The position numbers and the translations under genes were made by a program. The notes below the pieces were generated by a model, which ran no database searches, had not been told where the DNA came from, and worked only from the letters and a program-made list of their open reading frames with translations. A stretch of 37,753 nucleotides of DNA, from IMG/VR virus record IMGVR_UViG_2687453319_000001. The stretch is one strand, 5' to 3'. Positions 27,992 to 33,911 of this stretch are shown here, piece by piece; position 1 is the first letter of the stretch; the number at the start of each line of letters is the position of its first letter. The stretch is from a virus. Lineage: Duplodnaviria; Heunggongvirae; Uroviricota; Caudoviricetes.

Positions 27992-28978
27992 CTATTTAAG
28001 AATAAAACGGTATTTACTGTCAGGAGTGCTTTGCTGATCAAGTAGCAGTGAACGACATGGAGCAGTCAAAACCCGAGCATAACTACCATCAGGGCTTATG
28101 TTAATGTAACAAACCTTGCCCTTAACACTATAATTTTCGGGGACGGATGCCTTTGCTGATACAGTAAATTTAAGGGTATGCCAGCCCGTTTTTTGCTTGT
28201 AGCTTGAAACCGAATGGAAATCATCTGAGTACTTATTTAACCCTGGAAACATGCTGCGCAGTGCGGGGATGGAATCTTCTATTATTTTATCGTTGGTTTT
28301 AATGTTAAAAACGCTGGTTTCAGTAGAAGCTACTGCTTTGGCATTTCCCCATTTACCAGCGAACACAATCATTCCCACGAAAAATATTGCTACAAGAACT
28401 AACACTCCCCCCAACACTACTACATGAGGCTTCCGGCTTCTGGTTGGTACAGTTGCGACTGATTTTGCACCGCTTTCCGATGGAGGTGATAGAGTTTTAC
28501 TCTCATCACGAATATTCAGCAGATCATCAAAATAACCAAACACAGCCTGCAACTGCTCTTTGTCTAGGCCTTTAAGATGGGTTGTACCGAAATGCTTCAG
28601 ACAGTATCTGTCACGGTCAAGACGATACCCAGGGTCAGTAAGCGCCATTATTTTGCTGACCAGAAGATTACAGTCCTTCATATTCTGGATCTGTTGTGCA
28701 TATCTCTGAAGGATCTCAACCGCACCATGATAATCAGCCGCAGTCATTTCATTAACTGTTTTGGTATTAAGTTTCGTGTGGATCGTCATCCATAGCTCGC
28801 GCTTACTTTCCCCCAGATCAACCAATTCATCCATCAATCTGTGTAAATCGCGTTTTTGCAGCAACGAAATTGGTTGCTGGGCCGAAGGAAGTATGTCAGC
28901 AGAATAGTTATGAATGGTAACATCACCGCTGACAACGTTACCCACATCCCCGTTAACTGTTTGCTTCTCTTTACTCAT
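27992..28978 (-). CDS. Accessory protein X: cytoplasmic N-domain, single TM, periplasmic C-domain (candidate sensor of a Rex-like module)
   Basis: 328 aa; start overlaps the repressor stop; TM HVVVLGGVLVLVAIFFVGMIVFAG; N-terminal motif GDVGNVVSGDVTI resembles the repressor C-terminal HGDVLGNVIKGNVTI. Confidence 0.5.
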   Translation of the reverse strand: MSKEKQTVNGDVGNVVSGDVTIHNYSADILPSAQQPISLLQKRDLHRLMDELVDLGESKRELWMTIHTKLNTKTVNEMTAADYHGAVEILQRYAQQIQNMKDCNLLVSKIMALTDPGYRLDRDRYCLKHFGTTHLKGLDKEQLQAVFGYFDDLLNIRDESKTLSPPSESGAKSVATVPTRSRKPHVVVLGGVLVLVAIFFVGMIVFAGKWGNAKAVASTETSVFNIKTNDKIIEDSIPALRSMFPGLNKYSDDFHSVSSYKQKTGWHTLKFTVSAKASVPENYSVKGKVCYINISPDGSYARVLTAPCRSLLLDQQSTPDSKYRFILK

Positions 28979-29400
28979 CTTCTCTTGGTATTTTTGTTCA
29001 TTATTCCACCTGTTCCTATGGTTACGTTACCTTTGATAACATTCCCCAGAACATCTCCATGAATAACCTGTTCCGCCCGTTCTCTGGAGGAGCCAGTAGT
29101 CAAGGCCGACAAAACTGAACCTTTGACCTGTAATGGTGCCTGCCGGTAGTGCTGCAGTAACTCCATTTCATCACGTGATAAAGTTATACCTGATGACTCC
29201 CCGGTAAGAATGAACTGTACATTGGCCCCAATTCTTGCAAAGGCTGCAAGTAACTCACCTCCGGGAACAGCAACCCCTCGTTCATATTTCCCCCACATTT
29301 CTCTTGAAACGCCACAAAGGGCTGCTACTTCAGCCTGCTTGAGTGATAACCGCGAACGCTCAGCTTTGAACCGCGACGCGCAAAGAGAATCAAAATTCAC
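28975..29400 (-). CDS. Prophage repressor (HTH, XRE/Cro-C1 family); start uncertain (GTG 29400 or ATG 29436)
   Basis: HTH segment LSLKQAEVAALCGVSREMWGKYERG; divergent from the early operon; the ORF-track ATG at 29436 lies inside the -10 of the early promoter, so GTG at 29400 (GAGG RBS) is more plausible. Confidence 0.8.
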   Translation of the reverse strand: MNFDSLCASRFKAERSRLSLKQAEVAALCGVSREMWGKYERGVAVPGGELLAAFARIGANVQFILTGESSGITLSRDEMELLQHYRQAPLQVKGSVLSALTTGSSRERAEQVIHGDVLGNVIKGNVTIGTGGIMNKNTKRR

Positions 29401-29410
29401 ATAAACCTCA

Positions 29411-29439
29411 TTGACAATGAGAACAATAGTTCTCATAAT
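29411..29439 (+). promoter_or_regulatory. Early promoter Pe (TTGACA-17 bp-CATAAT) with a 20-bp perfect palindromic operator (ATGAGAACAATAGTTCTCAT, 29417-29436) in the spacer
   Basis: Consensus -35, 17-bp spacer, near-consensus -10, about 45 bp upstream of the first early gene; palindrome fills the spacer. Confidence 0.6.
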
Positions 29440-29486
29440 CTATCACATATAAAACAAACATCATTGCATCAACAAAGGAGACAACA

Positions 29487-29675
29487 ATGACTTCCGAACA
29501 AGTTAAAAATCTCTTCCGTCAGCGTGGTATCACGTTTACCCGCTGGGCCGAAGAACACGGCTACAGCCGCAATGAGGTCTATCGTGTTCTCAATGGACAG
29601 ACCAAAGCTCGTTACGGCAAAGCCCATGAAATTGCCGTAAAACTGGGATTAAAACCCACGTCAAATGCGGCATAA
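29487..29675 (+). CDS. Small DNA-binding early regulator (Ner/Cro-like)
   Basis: 62 aa, AAGGAG RBS; first gene of the early operon divergent from the repressor, as Mu ner. Confidence 0.55.
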   Translation: MTSEQVKNLFRQRGITFTRWAEEHGYSRNEVYRVLNGQTKARYGKAHEIAVKLGLKPTSNAA

Positions 29676-29727
29676 ATTTTCCACATATGCAACAGGTTAT
29701 CACATATTGCAAAAATGGAAATGTGAC

Positions 29728-30036
29728 ATGAGTAAAGTAAATATTTCCAGTTCTGGGACCCGCATCCTACGTGTACTCAAAGCTCTACGCGGTCATGCTC
29801 TGAACGGTGTTTCTAACGGTGAACTGGCATCAGCCCTGGGGGAGTCCCCGGCGAATATCAATCGAGCACTTAATACCCTTATTGAAGAGGGACTGGCCAT
29901 GAAATTAGAGAACGGACGTTTCGCACCGGGAATCCAGTTACTACAGATCGCCATGGCTCACAGTCACGAGATGGCGCGTGCACAGGATCGTATTAACGAA
30001 ATCAACCAACGAGTTATTTCAGGTAGTCGTTTGTAA
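29728..30036 (+). CDS. Winged-helix transcriptional regulator (IclR-like HTH domain only)
   Basis: TRILRVLKALRGHALNGVSNGELASALGESPANINRALNTLIEEGLAMKLENGRF resembles the IclR N-terminal HTH. Confidence 0.5.
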   Translation: MSKVNISSSGTRILRVLKALRGHALNGVSNGELASALGESPANINRALNTLIEEGLAMKLENGRFAPGIQLLQIAMAHSHEMARAQDRINEINQRVISGSRL

Positions 30037-30046
30037 GGAGTAATCA

Positions 30047-30961
30047 ATGGGACGCACCAAATCACCCGTTAACACTGAACTGAATGTTGAGGTTCCGCTG
30101 TCAGATAACATCAATGTCAATTTGAACGCTATGACACAGCATCGCATGGAAATTATGCAGCAGTTTGGTGATGGACTGCCTTATGAACGTGATCGCATTG
30201 TTCACGAAGCACGTTTTTATATGGCGCAGAGTGCTGAATCTATGCTGGAAGCGGGTAAGCGGCTGATCATCTTAAAAGAAAATGAGCCACACGGTGATTT
30301 TACAAACATTTTAGAAAATGAACTCGGACTTGCACCACAAGTTGCTCGCCGCATGATGCAAGCCAGTATGAAGTTTTTGGGAGAAGGTGATGAGCCAACA
30401 AAACGCTCAACGTTGAGCGTTTTGGGGAAAGCCAAACTGTACGACCTGATGGTTCTGGATAATGAAGAACTTGATGAATTGGCCGACGGCGGCACAGTTG
30501 CCGGCCTGACGCTTGACGACGTTGATCGCATGTCAGTACGTGAATTGCGTCAGGCCCTGCGCGAAGCGCGCGAAACCAACGCAGCACAACAGCGCGTACT
30601 CGCCGACAAAAATGAAAAAATAGATTCACTCTCCACCAGACTGGAGAAGAAATCCCGTATTCAGCCGCCTGAGCCTGATGAGGAGGTTAAGAAGCTGCGG
30701 GCGGAAGTAACAGCATTAGCGGTTGAGGCGGAATCTGCTATCGCCGTCCGACTGTCCAGCGCTTTTGAGACGCTGTGCGCATATTGTGCTGAAAACATGA
30801 TTGATACCCCCAGAGACTTCATGGCAGGCCTGGTCTGTCAACTGGAAAGCACAGCGCGTAGCCTGCGCTCCACATTTGACCTGCCGGACGAGCCAACAGG
30901 CAATGCAGCGCCTTCATGGCTGACTGAGCCGACGCCACAGATTAACGGGCTGGAGGCATAA
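30047..30961 (+). CDS. Hypothetical early protein
   Basis: 304 aa, AAGGAG RBS; immediately upstream of the transposase; no recognised motif. Confidence 0.45.
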   Translation: MGRTKSPVNTELNVEVPLSDNINVNLNAMTQHRMEIMQQFGDGLPYERDRIVHEARFYMAQSAESMLEAGKRLIILKENEPHGDFTNILENELGLAPQVARRMMQASMKFLGEGDEPTKRSTLSVLGKAKLYDLMVLDNEELDELADGGTVAGLTLDDVDRMSVRELRQALREARETNAAQQRVLADKNEKIDSLSTRLEKKSRIQPPEPDEEVKKLRAEVTALAVEAESAIAVRLSSAFETLCAYCAENMIDTPRDFMAGLVCQLESTARSLRSTFDLPDEPTGNAAPSWLTEPTPQINGLEA

Positions 30962-30964
30962 CCA

Positions 30965-32734
30965 ATGAATGCTGCCCTGACTGAACGACTGGTTTATGTC
31001 GCCCGCGCGGCACGTGACGCGGGGCATGGTAAACGCGGTGCAATATACGACGCTGCCTGTGCTGAACTTGGCATGTCCCGCGCCACTCTGCTGCGCAGGC
31101 TGAAGGAGGTCTCTGTGACTGATAAACGCAAAAAACGCGCCGATGCCGGGCGCAGCGCCCTGACCCGCGACGAAGCCGCGCTGATATCTGCCACACTGCG
31201 TGAGGCCACCCGCAAGAACGGTAAGCGTCTCTATTCCATCGCAGATGCAGTGGAAACCCTGCGGGCTAACGGCTTTATCACCGCAGGCAGAACAGATGAA
31301 ACCACCAGTGAGTTTTTCCCGTTGTCTGAAGATGCCATCAGCCGTGCTCTGCGTAACTATGGCCTGCACCCGGAACAACTGGATGCCCCTGCACCACATA
31401 CCGAAGTGGCCAGTCTGCATCCCAATCATGTCTGGCAGATTGACGCCTCACTCTGCACGCTTTACTACCTGAGCAATGGACATAAAGGGCTGCAGGTGAT
31501 GGACAGCGCGAAGTTCTACAAGAACAAGCCCGCTAACCTTGCCCGTATCGCCAGTGACCGCGTGTGGAGTTACGAGATTACCGACCATGCCAGCGGCTGG
31601 ATTTACGTTGAGTATGTGACGGGCGCGGAATCAGGTGAGAACCTGTGTTCTGTGCTTATCAACGCCATGCAGGAGCGTGGCGGCGCAGACGTGCTGCACG
31701 GCGTGCCGAAAATACTCTATCTCGACCCCGGCTCGGCAAACACCGCGGGTATGACGAAAAACATGTGCCGCTCACTGGGCATCGACCTGATAGCGCACAA
31801 GCCGCATAACGCCCGCGCCACCGGACAGGTGGAAAAGGCGCGTGACATTATCGAACGCAAGCTGGAGCCGGGTCTGAAGTTCCGGCCGGTTCACAGTCTG
31901 GAAGAACTCAACGCGCTGGCCGCGAAATGGCGCAGCCACTTTAACGCCACGGCTGTTCACAGCCGCCACGGTAAAACCCGCACGGATATCTGGCTGAAGA
32001 TTACTGCTGAGCAGCTGAAAAAAGCGCCTTCCGTTGAGGTATGTCGTGAACTGGCTGTGGCGGCACCAGAACTCCGCAAAGTCACGCCAAAACTTCGTGT
32101 CTCGTTCCGGGGCACTGAATTTGACGTATCAACGGTACCGGGCGTACTGGTTGGTGAAAAACTGATGATTACCCGTAACCCATGGCGCAGCGATGTGGCA
32201 CAGGTGGTTCTGACCGGTGAGGACGGCCACGAGACGTTCTTCCTGGTCGAAGAGGTCAGAAAGAACGAGTTTGGCTTTGCTGAAGGCGCGGCGGTATTTG
32301 GCGAAAGTTACAAAGCCCTGCCGGAAACCCCGGCACAGATGGCGGCAAAAGAAACCGAAGCGCTGGTTACCGGTACAGACAACGCCGCAGATGCAGCCGC
32401 CGCACGCAAGGCGAAGGCGCTGCCGTTCGGCGGGCGGCTTGACCCGTATAAACATATCGACGACACCACACTTCCGGCCTATATGCCGAAGCGTGGTCAG
32501 GCCTCTGACGTACGCGGGCCGCGCACTGAACAACGTCCCATGACTCATGTGGAGGCCGCGAAAGCCCTGCGCGATAAGTTCAGCGCCGACGGCCTTACCT
32601 GGACGCCGGAACATTACCGCCAGTTAACGGCACAGTACCCGGACGGCGTACCGGAAGCCGCACTGGATGAAGTCATGGCCACGCTGACCACACCGGCCCG
32701 CAGCAGTGTTATCAGCATTGTTAACGGCAACTGA
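30965..32734 (+). CDS. DDE transposase (Mu A-like function; retroviral-integrase/rve-type core)
   Basis: 589 aa; core motifs HVWQIDAS and LYLDPGSAN consistent with a DDE catalytic domain; followed by the ATPase partner. Confidence 0.85.
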   Translation: MNAALTERLVYVARAARDAGHGKRGAIYDAACAELGMSRATLLRRLKEVSVTDKRKKRADAGRSALTRDEAALISATLREATRKNGKRLYSIADAVETLRANGFITAGRTDETTSEFFPLSEDAISRALRNYGLHPEQLDAPAPHTEVASLHPNHVWQIDASLCTLYYLSNGHKGLQVMDSAKFYKNKPANLARIASDRVWSYEITDHASGWIYVEYVTGAESGENLCSVLINAMQERGGADVLHGVPKILYLDPGSANTAGMTKNMCRSLGIDLIAHKPHNARATGQVEKARDIIERKLEPGLKFRPVHSLEELNALAAKWRSHFNATAVHSRHGKTRTDIWLKITAEQLKKAPSVEVCRELAVAAPELRKVTPKLRVSFRGTEFDVSTVPGVLVGEKLMITRNPWRSDVAQVVLTGEDGHETFFLVEEVRKNEFGFAEGAAVFGESYKALPETPAQMAAKETEALVTGTDNAADAAAARKAKALPFGGRLDPYKHIDDTTLPAYMPKRGQASDVRGPRTEQRPMTHVEAAKALRDKFSADGLTWTPEHYRQLTAQYPDGVPEAALDEVMATLTTPARSSVISIVNGN

Positions 32735-32744
32735 GGAGGGAAAC

Positions 32745-33911
32745 ATGCTGGTACTGAAGCAGCAACTGAAAGAGGCCCGTATTCCACAGGCGGTGGTGGC
32801 GAGAGCTGTCGATGTTTCTGAGGCCACGCTGGCCCAGATTGTGAATCATAACGCGTGGCCCCGCACCAGCCCCGGAGAAGTGCGCCGGCGTCTTGCGTCC
32901 TGGCTGGAAAGTCAGGGGATTGATACAACGAAGAGTTTTGATGCTGTACAGGGCGCGGCCACGCCCCGTACAGCGGGTACCACAGATAAAACGAGCCTCA
33001 GTGAGGAAGAGAATATGTTACTCAAAAAACAGGTGTTATTTCCAGCAACCAAAAAAGCGTTTGGTCTTTTCCGTGACCCGTTCGCCGACGAAGCCATGCA
33101 GGGTTCTGATGATGTGTTCACCACCCCGGACATTCGCTACGTGCGTGAGGCGCTGTACCAGACAGCCCGTCATGGTGGGTTTATGGCCGTCATCGGTGAG
33201 TCCGGTGCGGGTAAATCCACGCTGCGCCGCGACCTGACTGAACGTATCAACCGCGAGAATGCGCCGGTAATTGTTATCGAGCCATACATCATCGCTATGG
33301 AAGACAACGATGTGAAAGGGAAAACCCTGAAGGCAGCAGCTATTGCCGAAGCCATTATCAGTACCATCGCACCACTGGAAAGCATCAGACGCAGTCAGGA
33401 CGCCCGTTTTCGCCAGTTGCATCGCGTCCTGAAAGACAGCAGCCAGGCGGGGTTCAGCCACGTTCTGGTGATTGAGGAGGCCCACAGTCTGCCCATTCCG
33501 ACACTGAAACACCTCAAACGCTTTTTTGAGCTGGAGTCCGGTTTCAAAAAACTGCTGTCCATCGTGCTGATTGGCCAGCCGGAACTGGCGACAAAACTGT
33601 CTGAACGCAATATGGAAGTCCGTGAAGTCGTTCAGCGCTGTGAGGTGGTCGAACTTCTGCCTCTGGACAATAACCTTGAAGAATTTCTGACGTTCAAACT
33701 GCAACGGGCCGGTAAACAGCTGACGGACATTATGGACGCCGGTGCAGTGGATGCCATACGTGCCCGCCTGAGCAATCCGGGAAGTCACCGTAAAAATATG
33801 GTCAGCCTGCTGTATCCGCTGGCCGTCAGTAACCTGGTAATAGCCGCCATGAATCTGGCCGCTGAAATCGGGGTTCCACAGGTCAACGCTGACGTTGTCA
33901 AAGGGGTTTAA
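32745..33911 (+). CDS. Transposition ATPase / target DNA activator (MuB/TniB-like AAA+)
   Basis: 389 aa; Walker A GESGAGKST, Walker B HVLVIEEAH; N-terminal HTH-like segment; GAGGAGG RBS. Confidence 0.8.
   Translation: MLVLKQQLKEARIPQAVVARAVDVSEATLAQIVNHNAWPRTSPGEVRRRLASWLESQGIDTTKSFDAVQGAATPRTAGTTDKTSLSEEENMLLKKQVLFPATKKAFGLFRDPFADEAMQGSDDVFTTPDIRYVREALYQTARHGGFMAVIGESGAGKSTLRRDLTERINRENAPVIVIEPYIIAMEDNDVKGKTLKAAAIAEAIISTIAPLESIRRSQDARFRQLHRVLKDSSQAGFSHVLVIEEAHSLPIPTLKHLKRFFELESGFKKLLSIVLIGQPELATKLSERNMEVREVVQRCEVVELLPLDNNLEEFLTFKLQRAGKQLTDIMDAGAVDAIRARLSNPGSHRKNMVSLLYPLAVSNLVIAAMNLAAEIGVPQVNADVVKGV

What the first reader, a model, noticed from the sequence alone, without database searches (positions are those of the whole stretch)
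29400..29490. Early promoter with a perfect 20-bp palindromic operator in its spacer
TTGACA (29411-29416), 17-bp spacer, CATAAT (29434-29439). The spacer plus -10 contains the perfect inverted repeat ATGAGAAC-AATA-GTTCTCAT (29417-29436), an ideal site for a dimeric HTH repressor to block the early promoter. The annotated repressor ATG at 29436 lies inside this element, so the true start is probably downstream (GTG 29400).
Basis: seen in the sequence. Interest (0 to 1): 0.5.

Follow-up and report, generated by a model that had tools for sequence, protein, structure and literature searches.

The report
Prophage early promoter with built-in operator
This is the main on/off switch of a Mu-like (B3/BcepMu-type) E. 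coli prophage: a near-consensus promoter for the lytic/transposition genes whose spacer is the binding site of the neighbouring repressor. It is an ordinary kind of element, but unusually well supported by comparison with relatives.

Summary
TTGACA (29411-16), a 17-nt spacer and CATAAT (29434-39) form the only 11/12 or better sigma-70 match in the window. The dyad ATGAGAAC-AATA-GTTCTCAT (29417-36) fills the spacer. It has perfect 8-bp arms and 18 of 20 bases are symmetric, so it is not a perfect 20-mer.

In more than 100 related loci, from Enterobacterales to Pseudomonas and Betaproteobacteria, the same TTGAC-17-(C)ATAAT scaffold lies between a divergent XRE repressor gene and a BcepMu-gp16/Ner-like gene. 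Most spacers hold a dyad with a variable, A+T-rich 4-bp centre. The half-sites change on both arms together and track the repressor's recognition helix. Heteroimmune E. coli relatives lose similarity to the window exactly at the -10 and carry a different repressor and a different dyad.

The repressor starts at GTG 29400 (141 aa), not at the annotated ATG 29436. Its DNA-binding domain resembles P22 c2, which binds an 18-bp dyad with four uncontacted central base pairs.

Repressor binding and the transcription start were not tested. This is a new member of a known kind, of modest interest. In passing, I found a strictly maintained 26-bp palindrome inside the DUF3102 gene.

The parts
29411..29416 (+). 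-35 hexamer TTGACA of the early (pE-like) promoter
   Evidence: TTGAC is present at the equivalent place in 63 of 80 genome loci that carry this repressor family.
29417..29436 (.). Operator dyad ATGAGAAC-AATA-GTTCTCAT. It fills the 17-nt spacer and the first 3 bases of the -10.
   Evidence: unique in the window. The dyad is conserved with a variable centre in Pectobacterium, Brenneria, Lonsdalea, Serratia and Pseudomonas. Both-arm changes occur in Izhakiella (ATGCGAAC/GTTCGCAT), Enterobacter soli and others.
29434..29439 (+). -10 hexamer CATAAT
   Evidence: At 17-nt spacing from TTGAC, A(-11) is conserved in 94% and T(-7) in 96% of 51 distinct relatives. Similarity to heteroimmune E. coli prophages begins here, at query position 535/536 = window 29434/5.
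29445..29447 (+). Predicted transcription start of the early operon (inferred, not mapped)
   Evidence: It lies 6-8 nt after the -10. A CA-rich motif is common at this distance in relatives. No RNA data were available.
29475..29480 (+). Shine-Dalgarno motif AAGGAG of the first early gene
   Evidence: It lies 6 nt before ATG 29487.
29487..29675 (+). First early gene: BcepMu gp16-family / Ner-like small HTH protein (62 aa)
   Evidence: TIGR04111, E = 2.8e-27. PGAP names it a DNA-binding protein. Homologous to B3 ORF17.
28975..29400 (-). Repressor gene with revised start GTG 29400 (141 aa; XRE/P22 c2-like HTH followed by a two-helix C-terminal part and a disordered tail)
   Evidence: Pfam HTH_31 and HTH_3. 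Homologue N-termini. Start-codon analysis. AlphaFold model. Foldseek match to the P22 c2 N-terminal domain, rmsd 1.5 A over 64 columns.
29406..29409 (-). Shine-Dalgarno motif GAGG of the repressor gene. It lies 5 nt upstream of GTG 29400 and next to the -35 hexamer of the opposite strand.
   Evidence: GAGG, GGGG, GGAG or AAGG is present at this place in most of the loci examined.
29401..29436 (-). Annotated N-terminal extension (MRTIVLIVNEVY), judged not to be coding. It is the reverse strand of the -35 and operator.
   Evidence: A stop codon follows the ATG in L009 and L010. Lonsdalea has no ATG. The ATG is out of frame in the Pseudomonas loci. There is no Shine-Dalgarno motif before ATG 29436.
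29728..33911 (+). Rest of the early operon controlled from this promoter: IclR-like wHTH protein, DUF3102 protein, DDE transposase (A) and an AAA+ ATPase (MuB-like by its position after the transposase gene)
   Evidence: Same gene order in B3 and in E. coli relatives.

Best explanation
The element is the lytic ('early', pE-type) sigma-70 promoter of a B3/BcepMu-like transposable prophage, with the single immunity operator built into its spacer.

Proposed mechanism. A dimer of the divergently encoded 141-aa XRE repressor places one recognition helix (residues 33-41, SREMWGKYE) on each 8-bp arm of ATGAGAAC-N4-GTTCTCAT. The A+T-rich central 4 bp are probably not contacted. The protein then occupies all the DNA between the -35 and the first three bases of the -10, so RNA polymerase cannot bind or open the promoter. 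The gp16/Ner-like gene, the DUF3102 gene and the transposase A/B operon therefore stay silent in the lysogen.

Autoregulation. The repressor's own Shine-Dalgarno motif and start codon lie just left of the -35, so any repressor transcript must cross the operator. The same site can therefore also limit repressor synthesis.

Immunity cassette. The operator and the repressor gene are inherited together as one cassette whose right-hand recombination boundary is the -10 hexamer.

Shown here: the sequence anatomy, its conservation, the co-variation of the dyad with the repressor, and the corrected start codon. Inferred: actual binding, the transcription start, steric occlusion as the mode of repression, and autoregulation.
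For: Promoter. It is the only 11/12 or better match in the window. In 51 distinct related sequences the hexamers at 17-nt spacing are conserved while the spacer carries little information.

Dyad enrichment. 43 of 63 TTGAC-anchored loci have a dyad of at least 6/7 with a 4-nt centre in the spacer, against 1.5% of control windows from the same loci.

Link to the repressor. Arm complementarity is 5.95/8 within loci and 2.91/8 between loci, and 0 of 10,000 permutations reach that value. Three to four Watson-Crick pair types occur at arm positions 4-8. The centre is 82% A+T and varies. About ten recognition-helix classes each go with their own half-site, for example SRE[IM]WG[KR]YE with GAGAAC, [KQ]RETWSRYE with TGTGAT, TKKSQIDYEK with GGTAAC and KKLAQLNYEK with GGTATTC.

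Heteroimmune relatives. E. coli relatives keep the right-hand sequence from the -10 onward but have another repressor and another spacer dyad. JJ1886 and PhiKM have TGCTCATAATTATGAGCA, and A20 has TATCCCA-TTTT-TGGGATA. The pattern is general in 80 viral contigs. Identical gp16 proteins accompany different dyads.

Repressor fold. The DNA-binding domain matches P22 c2 by sequence (E = 9e-5) and by fold (TM 0.83-0.85, rmsd 1.5 A). P22 c2 binds an 18-bp dyad as a dimer without contacting the central 4 bp (PMC4267663).

Experiment in a relative. Phage B3 ORF18 is 36% identical and has the same layout. In B3-family phage Fc02 a temperature-sensitive repressor mutant releases pE transcription of ner and the early operon (PMC9936078).

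Local conservation. The region 29340-29500 is identical in a prophage that is only 96.2% identical over 1.2 kb.
Against: There is no direct evidence for this element: no transcription-start data, binding assay or reporter. Only one operator copy is present, whereas the classical lambdoid and Mu switches use several cooperating sites. How one site would give a stable switch is not explained. No convincing promoter for the repressor gene was found on the - strand, so the autoregulation step is conjecture. Some family members have only weak dyads (5/8 or less). Loci are phylogenetically related, so the counts are not independent events. The register of each dyad was chosen as the best of a few offsets, which inflates within-locus complementarity somewhat.
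Confidence: 0.85

Rival explanations
1. The dyad is mainly the binding site of the small gp16/Ner-like (Cro-like) protein encoded just downstream, not of the repressor.
For: In lambda-type switches Cro and CI share operators. gp16 is a small HTH protein that is always adjacent to the element.
Against: gp16 proteins that are identical (L101 and L102) or nearly identical in the HTH (window and JJ1886) sit next to completely different dyads. The dyad instead tracks the repressor's recognition helix and lies on the repressor side of the mosaic boundary. Sequences that do travel with gp16 are TATCACATAT and CATCATTGCAT, to the right of the -10.
Confidence: 0.03
2. The inverted repeat acts as an RNA hairpin in the 5' leader of the repressor mRNA, controlling its translation or stability, rather than as a DNA operator.
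For: Any repressor transcript must include it. The - strand leader folds at -14.3 kcal/mol (z = -2.6; 2 of 200 shuffles fold as well) with the 8-bp stem close to the Shine-Dalgarno motif. Both-arm changes would also preserve a hairpin.
Against: Arm sequences are conserved as sequences within each recognition-helix class and switch with that helix. A hairpin does not predict this. The non-complementary positions are mostly A.A, T.T and C.A rather than G.U-type. Close relatives tolerate an A.A mismatch in mid-stem (L009-L016). The JJ1886-type site is a loop-less 18-bp palindrome. The position is fixed relative to the promoter hexamers, not relative to the repressor start. A secondary RNA role remains possible.
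Confidence: 0.05
3. The site only autoregulates the repressor gene, and the TTGACA-17-CATAAT match is not the functional early promoter.
For: The transcription start is unmapped. Promoter-like matches are not proof of function (caveat printed).
Against: The hexamers and their spacing are the most conserved positions across the family. No other candidate promoter lies upstream of the early operon. In Fc02 a pE promoter in the corresponding intergenic region fires on repressor inactivation.
Confidence: 0.04
4. Chance coincidence of an 8-bp inverted repeat with a promoter-like match.
For: Perfect 8-bp inverted repeats occur at about the random rate in the window (7 against 6.2).
Against: The same architecture recurs in more than 100 loci with many different dyad sequences.
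Confidence: 0.01

Closest known systems
P22 c2 repressor and its operators (with 434 cI as a related case)
   Same: The five-helix XRE HTH domain gives the best PDB match by sequence and by fold. P22 c2 binds an 18-bp dyad as a dimer, with outer half-sites read in the major groove and four central base pairs uncontacted (PMC4267663). Here the arms are 7-8 bp around a variable, 82% A+T, 4-bp centre. In both cases the operator overlaps the lytic promoter.
   Different: There is a single operator, not three tandem cooperative sites at OR plus a second set at OL. The C-terminal part is a short two-helix segment with a disordered tail, and no peptidase S24 domain was found, so RecA-type self-cleavage is not expected. 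The dyad sits inside the spacer. The host phage is transposable, not lambdoid.
Lysis-lysogeny region of Pseudomonas phage B3 and its relative Fc02 (repc, pE, pC2, pC1, ner-like)
   Same: The repressor is homologous (B3 ORF18, 36% identity, E = 1e-15). The ner-like gp16 gene is homologous and the downstream order is the same, with DUF3102 and the transposase. B3 has TTGACA-GGTGCAATATTTGGCAC-CACTAT with a GTG repressor start next to the -35. In Fc02, repressor inactivation turns on pE (PMC9936078).
   Different: The half-site differs (GGTGCA type against GAGAAC), and so do the host and the accessory genes. The Fc02 paper defines promoters by prediction and RNA-seq but defines no repressor-binding site: it has one occurrence of 'operator' and none of 'binding site'. 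I could not read the original B3 paper (Braid et al. 2004).
Phage Mu c repressor, Ner, Pe/Pc and operators O1-O3
   Same: Same logic and gene order: a divergent repressor gene, then an early promoter driving a small Ner-type regulator and the transposase A/B genes (comparison from general knowledge of Mu).
   Different: From general knowledge, the Mu repressor is not an XRE HTH protein (its DNA-binding domain is related to that of MuA), and it binds many sites across three operators that also serve as the transposition enhancer. Here there is an XRE repressor and one dyad. The gp16 protein matches TIGR04111; no comparison with Mu Ner was run.
Operators placed in the promoter spacer in other systems, such as R-M controller (C) proteins and MerR-type regulators
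   Same: A dimeric HTH protein is bound between or over the promoter hexamers. C-protein HTH domains are among the structural matches.
   Different: The spacer here is the optimal 17 nt, not the 19-20 nt that MerR-type activators need. Nothing suggests activation.

Membership tests
Sigma-70 promoter | -35 and -10 hexamers close to consensus at 16-18 nt spacing | tested here: met
   TTGACA-17-CATAAT, 11/12. It is unique in the window and the hexamers are conserved across relatives.
Sigma-70 promoter | Transcription starts 6-8 nt downstream of the -10 | not testable with these tools
   No RNA data for this prophage. The only indirect support is Fc02 RNA-seq in a relative (PMC9936078).
Phage immunity operator of the P22 c2 / 434 type | Dyad-symmetric site of about 14-20 bp, with conserved outer half-sites and a variable central segment | tested here: met
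   Layout 8+4+8. The arms are conserved and the centre varies among loci with the same half-site: AATA, TAAA, TATA, TAGA, TTTG, CAAA and TTAA.
Phage immunity operator of the P22 c2 / 434 type | Site specificity matches the cognate repressor (heteroimmunity) | tested here: met
   Half-site classes track the recognition helix. Heteroimmune E. coli relatives swap the repressor and the dyad together.
Phage immunity operator of the P22 c2 / 434 type | Physical binding by the repressor | not testable with these tools
   Needs EMSA, footprinting or ChIP.
Lambdoid tripartite operator (OR1-OR3 / OL1-OL3) | Several adjacent operator copies with cooperative binding | tested here: not met
   One copy at up to 3 mismatches. 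The only other weak match, at 31636-53, is at the chance level.
XRE / cI-like HTH repressor | HTH_3 / HTH_31 five-helix DNA-binding domain | tested here: met
   Pfam PF13560 (E = 4.7e-7) and PF01381. Modelled helices at residues 3-17, 22-29, 33-41, 48-56 and 61-66. P22 c2 match with TM 0.83-0.85.
LexA / lambda-CI-type self-cleaving repressor | C-terminal peptidase S24 domain | tested here: not met
   No S24 hit in Pfam. The C-terminal part is two helices plus a disordered tail. A few distant homologues do carry PF00717.
Mu c-type repressor | Mu-type (MuA-related) DNA-binding domain and multiple operators O1-O3 | tested here: not met
   The protein is an XRE HTH with a single dyad. The definition of the Mu family rests on general knowledge, not on a test run here.
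MerR-type spacer-binding activator site | Over-long 19-20 nt spacer with a dyad | tested here: not met
   The spacer is 17 nt here and in most relatives examined.
B3 / BcepMu-like transposable phage early region | Divergent repressor gene, then a gp16/Ner-like gene, a DUF3102 gene, a DDE transposase and an ATPase | tested here: met
   TIGR04111 (E = 2.8e-27), DUF3102, rve and AAA-type hits. Synteny with B3 and with PhiKM, which is classified as Bcepmuvirus.

The most novel reading that the evidence does not exclude
The spacer-embedded single dyad may be a conserved 'plug-in' immunity cassette design for a whole group of transposable phages. One promoter scaffold (TTGAC-17-CATAAT) would accept dozens of natural, mutually orthogonal repressor/operator pairs, exchanged by recombination exactly at the -10. 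The same dyad might also act as a hairpin or roadblock in the repressor's own leader, so that one 20-bp element would control both arms of the switch without the multi-operator cooperativity of lambda or Mu.
Probability: 0.2. Interest if true: 0.5.

Novelty: new member of a known kind. Interest (0 to 1): 0.32.

Why it matters
The result fixes the repressor's start codon, which RefSeq annotates 12 codons too long in the records inspected. It identifies the probable immunity determinant of a prophage found in about 2% of complete E. coli genomes in this form (127 of 5,426) and in about 11% as heteroimmune relatives (624 of 5,426), including ST131 strains. It also gives a ready-made table of natural recognition-helix/half-site pairs on a constant promoter. 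That table could be used to study HTH specificity or to build orthogonal repressible promoters. Conceptually it is a standard repressor-over-promoter switch.

Tried and rejected
- Extra operator copies. Searching with the full dyad, a 14-base core and the half-site found nothing above chance.
- A promoter for the repressor gene on the - strand. The consensus scans of 28800-30200 and 30000-31400 found none. Reading by eye gave only poor candidates, so pC2- or pC1-type promoters remain unlocated.
- gp16 as the binder. Rejected because identical gp16 proteins accompany different dyads.
- The IclR-like protein as binder of the separate DUF3102 palindrome. Its HTH does not co-vary with that palindrome.
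- Literature. Searches for an already described operator in BcepMu-, B3- or Beetrevirus-type phages found none in the held library. The B3 genome paper could not be opened. One search failed on a term that was too short.
- Formal pair counting with the structure tool. Not used, because two dyad registers one base apart would have forced gaps in the alignment. A permutation test in a script replaced it.

Full report
**What is in the sequence.** Reading 29000-30000 confirms TTGACA at 29411-16, a 17-nt spacer, and CATAAT at 29434-39 on the + strand. It also confirms the inverted repeat ATGAGAAC (29417-24) / GTTCTCAT (29429-36) around AATA. The arms are perfect. Of the centre, only the inner pair A29426/T29427 is symmetric, so 18 of 20 bases are symmetric and this is not a perfect 20-mer. 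The consensus scan finds this as the only promoter-like site in 28800-30200. My own scan finds it as the only match of 11/12 or better on either strand of the whole window, against 0.30 expected. The dyad is unique at up to 3 mismatches, against 0.12 expected. An 8-bp inverted repeat by itself is not unusual: about 7 distinct ones occur against 6.2 expected, and the half-site is not enriched. The case therefore rests on placement and comparison, not on the repeat alone.

**Context.** The - strand ORF 28975-29436 is an XRE-type HTH protein (Pfam HTH_31 and HTH_3). To the right on the + strand lie, in order:
- a 62-aa BcepMu-gp16-family protein (TIGR04111, E = 2.8e-27);
- an IclR-like winged-helix protein;
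- a DUF3102 protein;
- a DDE transposase and an AAA-type ATPase.

This is the early region of a B3/BcepMu-like transposable phage. The closest isolated phage, Escherichia phage PhiKM, is classified as Bcepmuvirus. Phage B3 has the same gene order. The 1.2-kb region occurs at full length in 127 of 5,426 complete E. coli genomes, and part of it in 624.

**The dyad travels with the repressor.** In roughly 490 of those genomes, similarity to the window begins at query position 535/536. That is window 29434/5, the first base of the -10, and similarity then runs rightward. To the left, those prophages carry a different, shorter HTH repressor (only 36% identical over 67 residues for JJ1886). Their equivalent promoter spacer holds a different dyad:
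- TTGATA-TGCTCATAATTATGAGC-AATAAT in JJ1886 and PhiKM;
- TTTACA-TATCCCATTTTTGGGAT-AATAAT in strain A20;
- TTGACT-GGTGAGGTAATCTGCAC-CATAAT in 2014EL-1343-2.

A scan of viral contigs with gp16 returned 80 loci with 51 distinct promoter cores. Most are TTGACx-17-(C/A)ATAAT with an immunity-specific dyad. Identical gp16 proteins (L101 and L102) sit beside unrelated dyads. The dyad is therefore not gp16's site.

**Within the repressor's own family.** A genome scan with an alignment of repressor homologues returned 80 loci from Enterobacterales, Pseudomonas, Orbaceae and many Betaproteobacteria. After turning each locus to the window's orientation, the same layout appears a few nt beyond the repressor start (about 12-20 nt in my register).
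- Loci with the same half-site keep ATGAGAAC/GTTCTCAT while the centre varies: AATA, TAAA, TATA, TAGA, TTTG, CAAA, TTAA.
- Other loci change both arms together. Examples are Izhakiella ATGCGAAC/GTTCGCAT, Enterobacter soli AAGAGATC/GATCTCAT, Jeongeupia TGGTAACT/AGTTACCA, Azospira ATGGATAC/GTATCCAT and Pandoraea TTGTGAAG/CTTCACAA.
- With loci anchored only on TTGAC, 43 of 63 have a dyad of at least 6/7 in the next 24 nt, against 1.5% of control windows from the same loci.
- Arm complementarity is 5.95/8 within loci and 2.91/8 between loci. None of 10,000 permutations reached the observed value. The centre is 82% A+T.
- In 51 distinct sequences the -10 positions A(-11) and T(-7) are 94% and 96% conserved at 17-nt spacing, while spacer positions carry 0.06-0.8 bits.
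- About ten classes of recognition helix each pair with their own half-site.

Two caveats apply. The loci are related, so they are not independent events. The dyad register was picked as the best of four offsets.

**The repressor's start.** RefSeq annotates ATG 29436, which lies inside the dyad. Four observations favour GTG 29400 instead.
- Most homologues start at MNFDSL..., which corresponds to GTG 29400. One is a 141-aa protein that is 89% identical.
- In Pectobacterium and Brenneria the dyad's ATG is followed immediately by TGA. Lonsdalea has no ATG there. In the Pseudomonas loci it is out of frame.
- Nearly every locus examined has GTG, ATG or TTG at the 29400-equivalent position. Most have GAGG, GGGG, GGAG or AAGG a few nt upstream, directly next to the reverse complement of the -35. 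B3 ORF18 is annotated this way.
- ATG 29436 has no Shine-Dalgarno motif.

The apparent conservation of 'MRTxVLIVN' in a few annotated homologues is the operator and the -35 read as protein.

**How it most likely works.** The AlphaFold model has five N-terminal helices, with the recognition helix at residues 33-41, then two further helices at 76-101 and a disordered tail. The best PDB matches are P22 c2 N-terminal domain-operator complexes, with rmsd 1.5 A over 64 columns and 30% identity. [quoted passage not shown] That is the geometry seen here.

A dimer on 29417-29436 would cover the whole spacer and the upstream end of the -10, and would exclude RNA polymerase. For the related B3-family phage Fc02, a temperature-sensitive repressor mutant releases a burst of pE transcription starting at ner. 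In that lysogen the repressor gene is transcribed largely from a distal promoter, pC1, that reads antisense through ner. A second promoter, pC2, overlaps pE (PMC9936078). That paper defines no operator.

In the window I found no convincing - strand promoter. Because the repressor's Shine-Dalgarno motif lies next to the -35, every repressor transcript must cross the operator. Negative autoregulation is therefore plausible but unshown. The repressor has no S24 domain, so the induction route is unknown.

**Rivals.**
- gp16 as the binder is excluded.
- An RNA hairpin in the repressor leader is possible as a secondary role (-14.3 kcal/mol, z = -2.6). It does not explain why arm sequence tracks the recognition helix, why mismatches are not G.U-type, or why the position is fixed relative to the hexamers.
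- Chance is excluded by the comparative data.

**Comparison and novelty.** The element works like a P22/434-type operator over a lytic promoter. It belongs to the B3/BcepMu-type switch, not to the Mu c or lambdoid tripartite types: it has a single site, an XRE repressor and no S24 domain. The held literature describes no operator for this group, but the principle is textbook. I rate it a new member of a known kind, of modest interest. Its practical value lies in correcting the annotation and in supplying a natural set of helix/half-site pairs.

**Noticed in passing.** A 26-bp perfect palindrome lies inside the DUF3102 gene (30399-30424). In relatives it stays a perfect palindrome through many both-arm changes while the encoded amino acids drift. 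It is unexplained and may deserve its own follow-up.

Noticed in passing
window 30399-30424 (inside the DUF3102 gene, 30047-30961): A 26-bp perfect palindrome, CAAAACGCTCAACGTTGAGCGTTTTG, encoding TKRSTLSVL. In relatives it stays a perfect 24-28-bp palindrome with both-arm changes, for example CCAAATGTGCCAACGTTGGCACATTTGG, CCAAAAGCGACAACGTTGTCGCTTTTGG, CCAAAACGCTCAGCGCTGAGCGTTTTGG and CAAAACGGCCAACGTTGGCCGTTTTG. There are no G.T pairs, and the encoded residues change freely. The upstream IclR-like HTH does not co-vary with it. Selection therefore seems to act on the nucleic acid. Candidates are a bidirectional attenuator-like hairpin (A4-stem-T4), an RNA processing site or a DNA site. No literature on DUF3102 function was found.
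   Followed up: partly
window 29441-29450 and 29698-29707 (also 29679-29691): TATCACATAT occurs twice: once just after the -10, over the predicted transcription start, and once in the gap before the IclR-like gene, next to a related CCACATATGCAA. Two copies are within chance for the window. However, the motif stays with the gp16 gene in heteroimmune relatives, which makes it a candidate site for the gp16/Ner-like protein.
   Followed up: partly
window 29459-29471: CATCATTGCATCA in the 5' untranslated region of the early transcript is conserved from E. coli prophages to Pseudomonas phage B3 (CATCTTTGCAT), although the surrounding sequence has diverged. Its function is unknown. It may belong to a repressor-gene promoter on the other strand or to a regulatory site.
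   Followed up: no
window 27992-28978 (- strand): A 328-aa ORF whose ATG overlaps the repressor's stop codon (ATGA), so it is probably co-transcribed in the lysogen. It has a hydrophobic membrane-type segment and a weak N-terminal resemblance to Flk (E = 2.9e-12, far below the curated cut-off). Its N-terminus (GDVGNVVSGDVTIHN) resembles the repressor's C-terminal tail (GDVLGNVIKGNVTIG). It may be a lysogeny cargo or exclusion gene.
   Followed up: no
window 31636-31653 (inside the transposase gene): TGAGAACCTGTGTTCTGT is a weak second match to the operator core, with 2 mismatches. It is at the chance level (2 hits against 1.39 expected). Its conservation was not examined.
   Followed up: no
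window 29401-29436, and the RefSeq records NZ_CP025856 and NZ_CP024278: The RefSeq/PGAP repressor proteins WP_001259268 and WP_001259267 (153 aa) appear to be annotated 12 codons too long. The extension is the reverse strand of the -35 and the operator.
   Followed up: yes
Repressor homologues P0021, P0022, P0025 and P0028 compared with the window protein (alignment A2): Some homologues share the window repressor's C-terminal half almost exactly (LS.DE..L...YR.AP..VK..VLSALT.GSS.ERAEQVIHGDVLGNVIKGNVT...) but have a different N-terminal HTH (recognition helix KKLAQLNYEKG). This suggests that DNA-binding modules have been shuffled onto a common C-terminal module.
   Followed up: no
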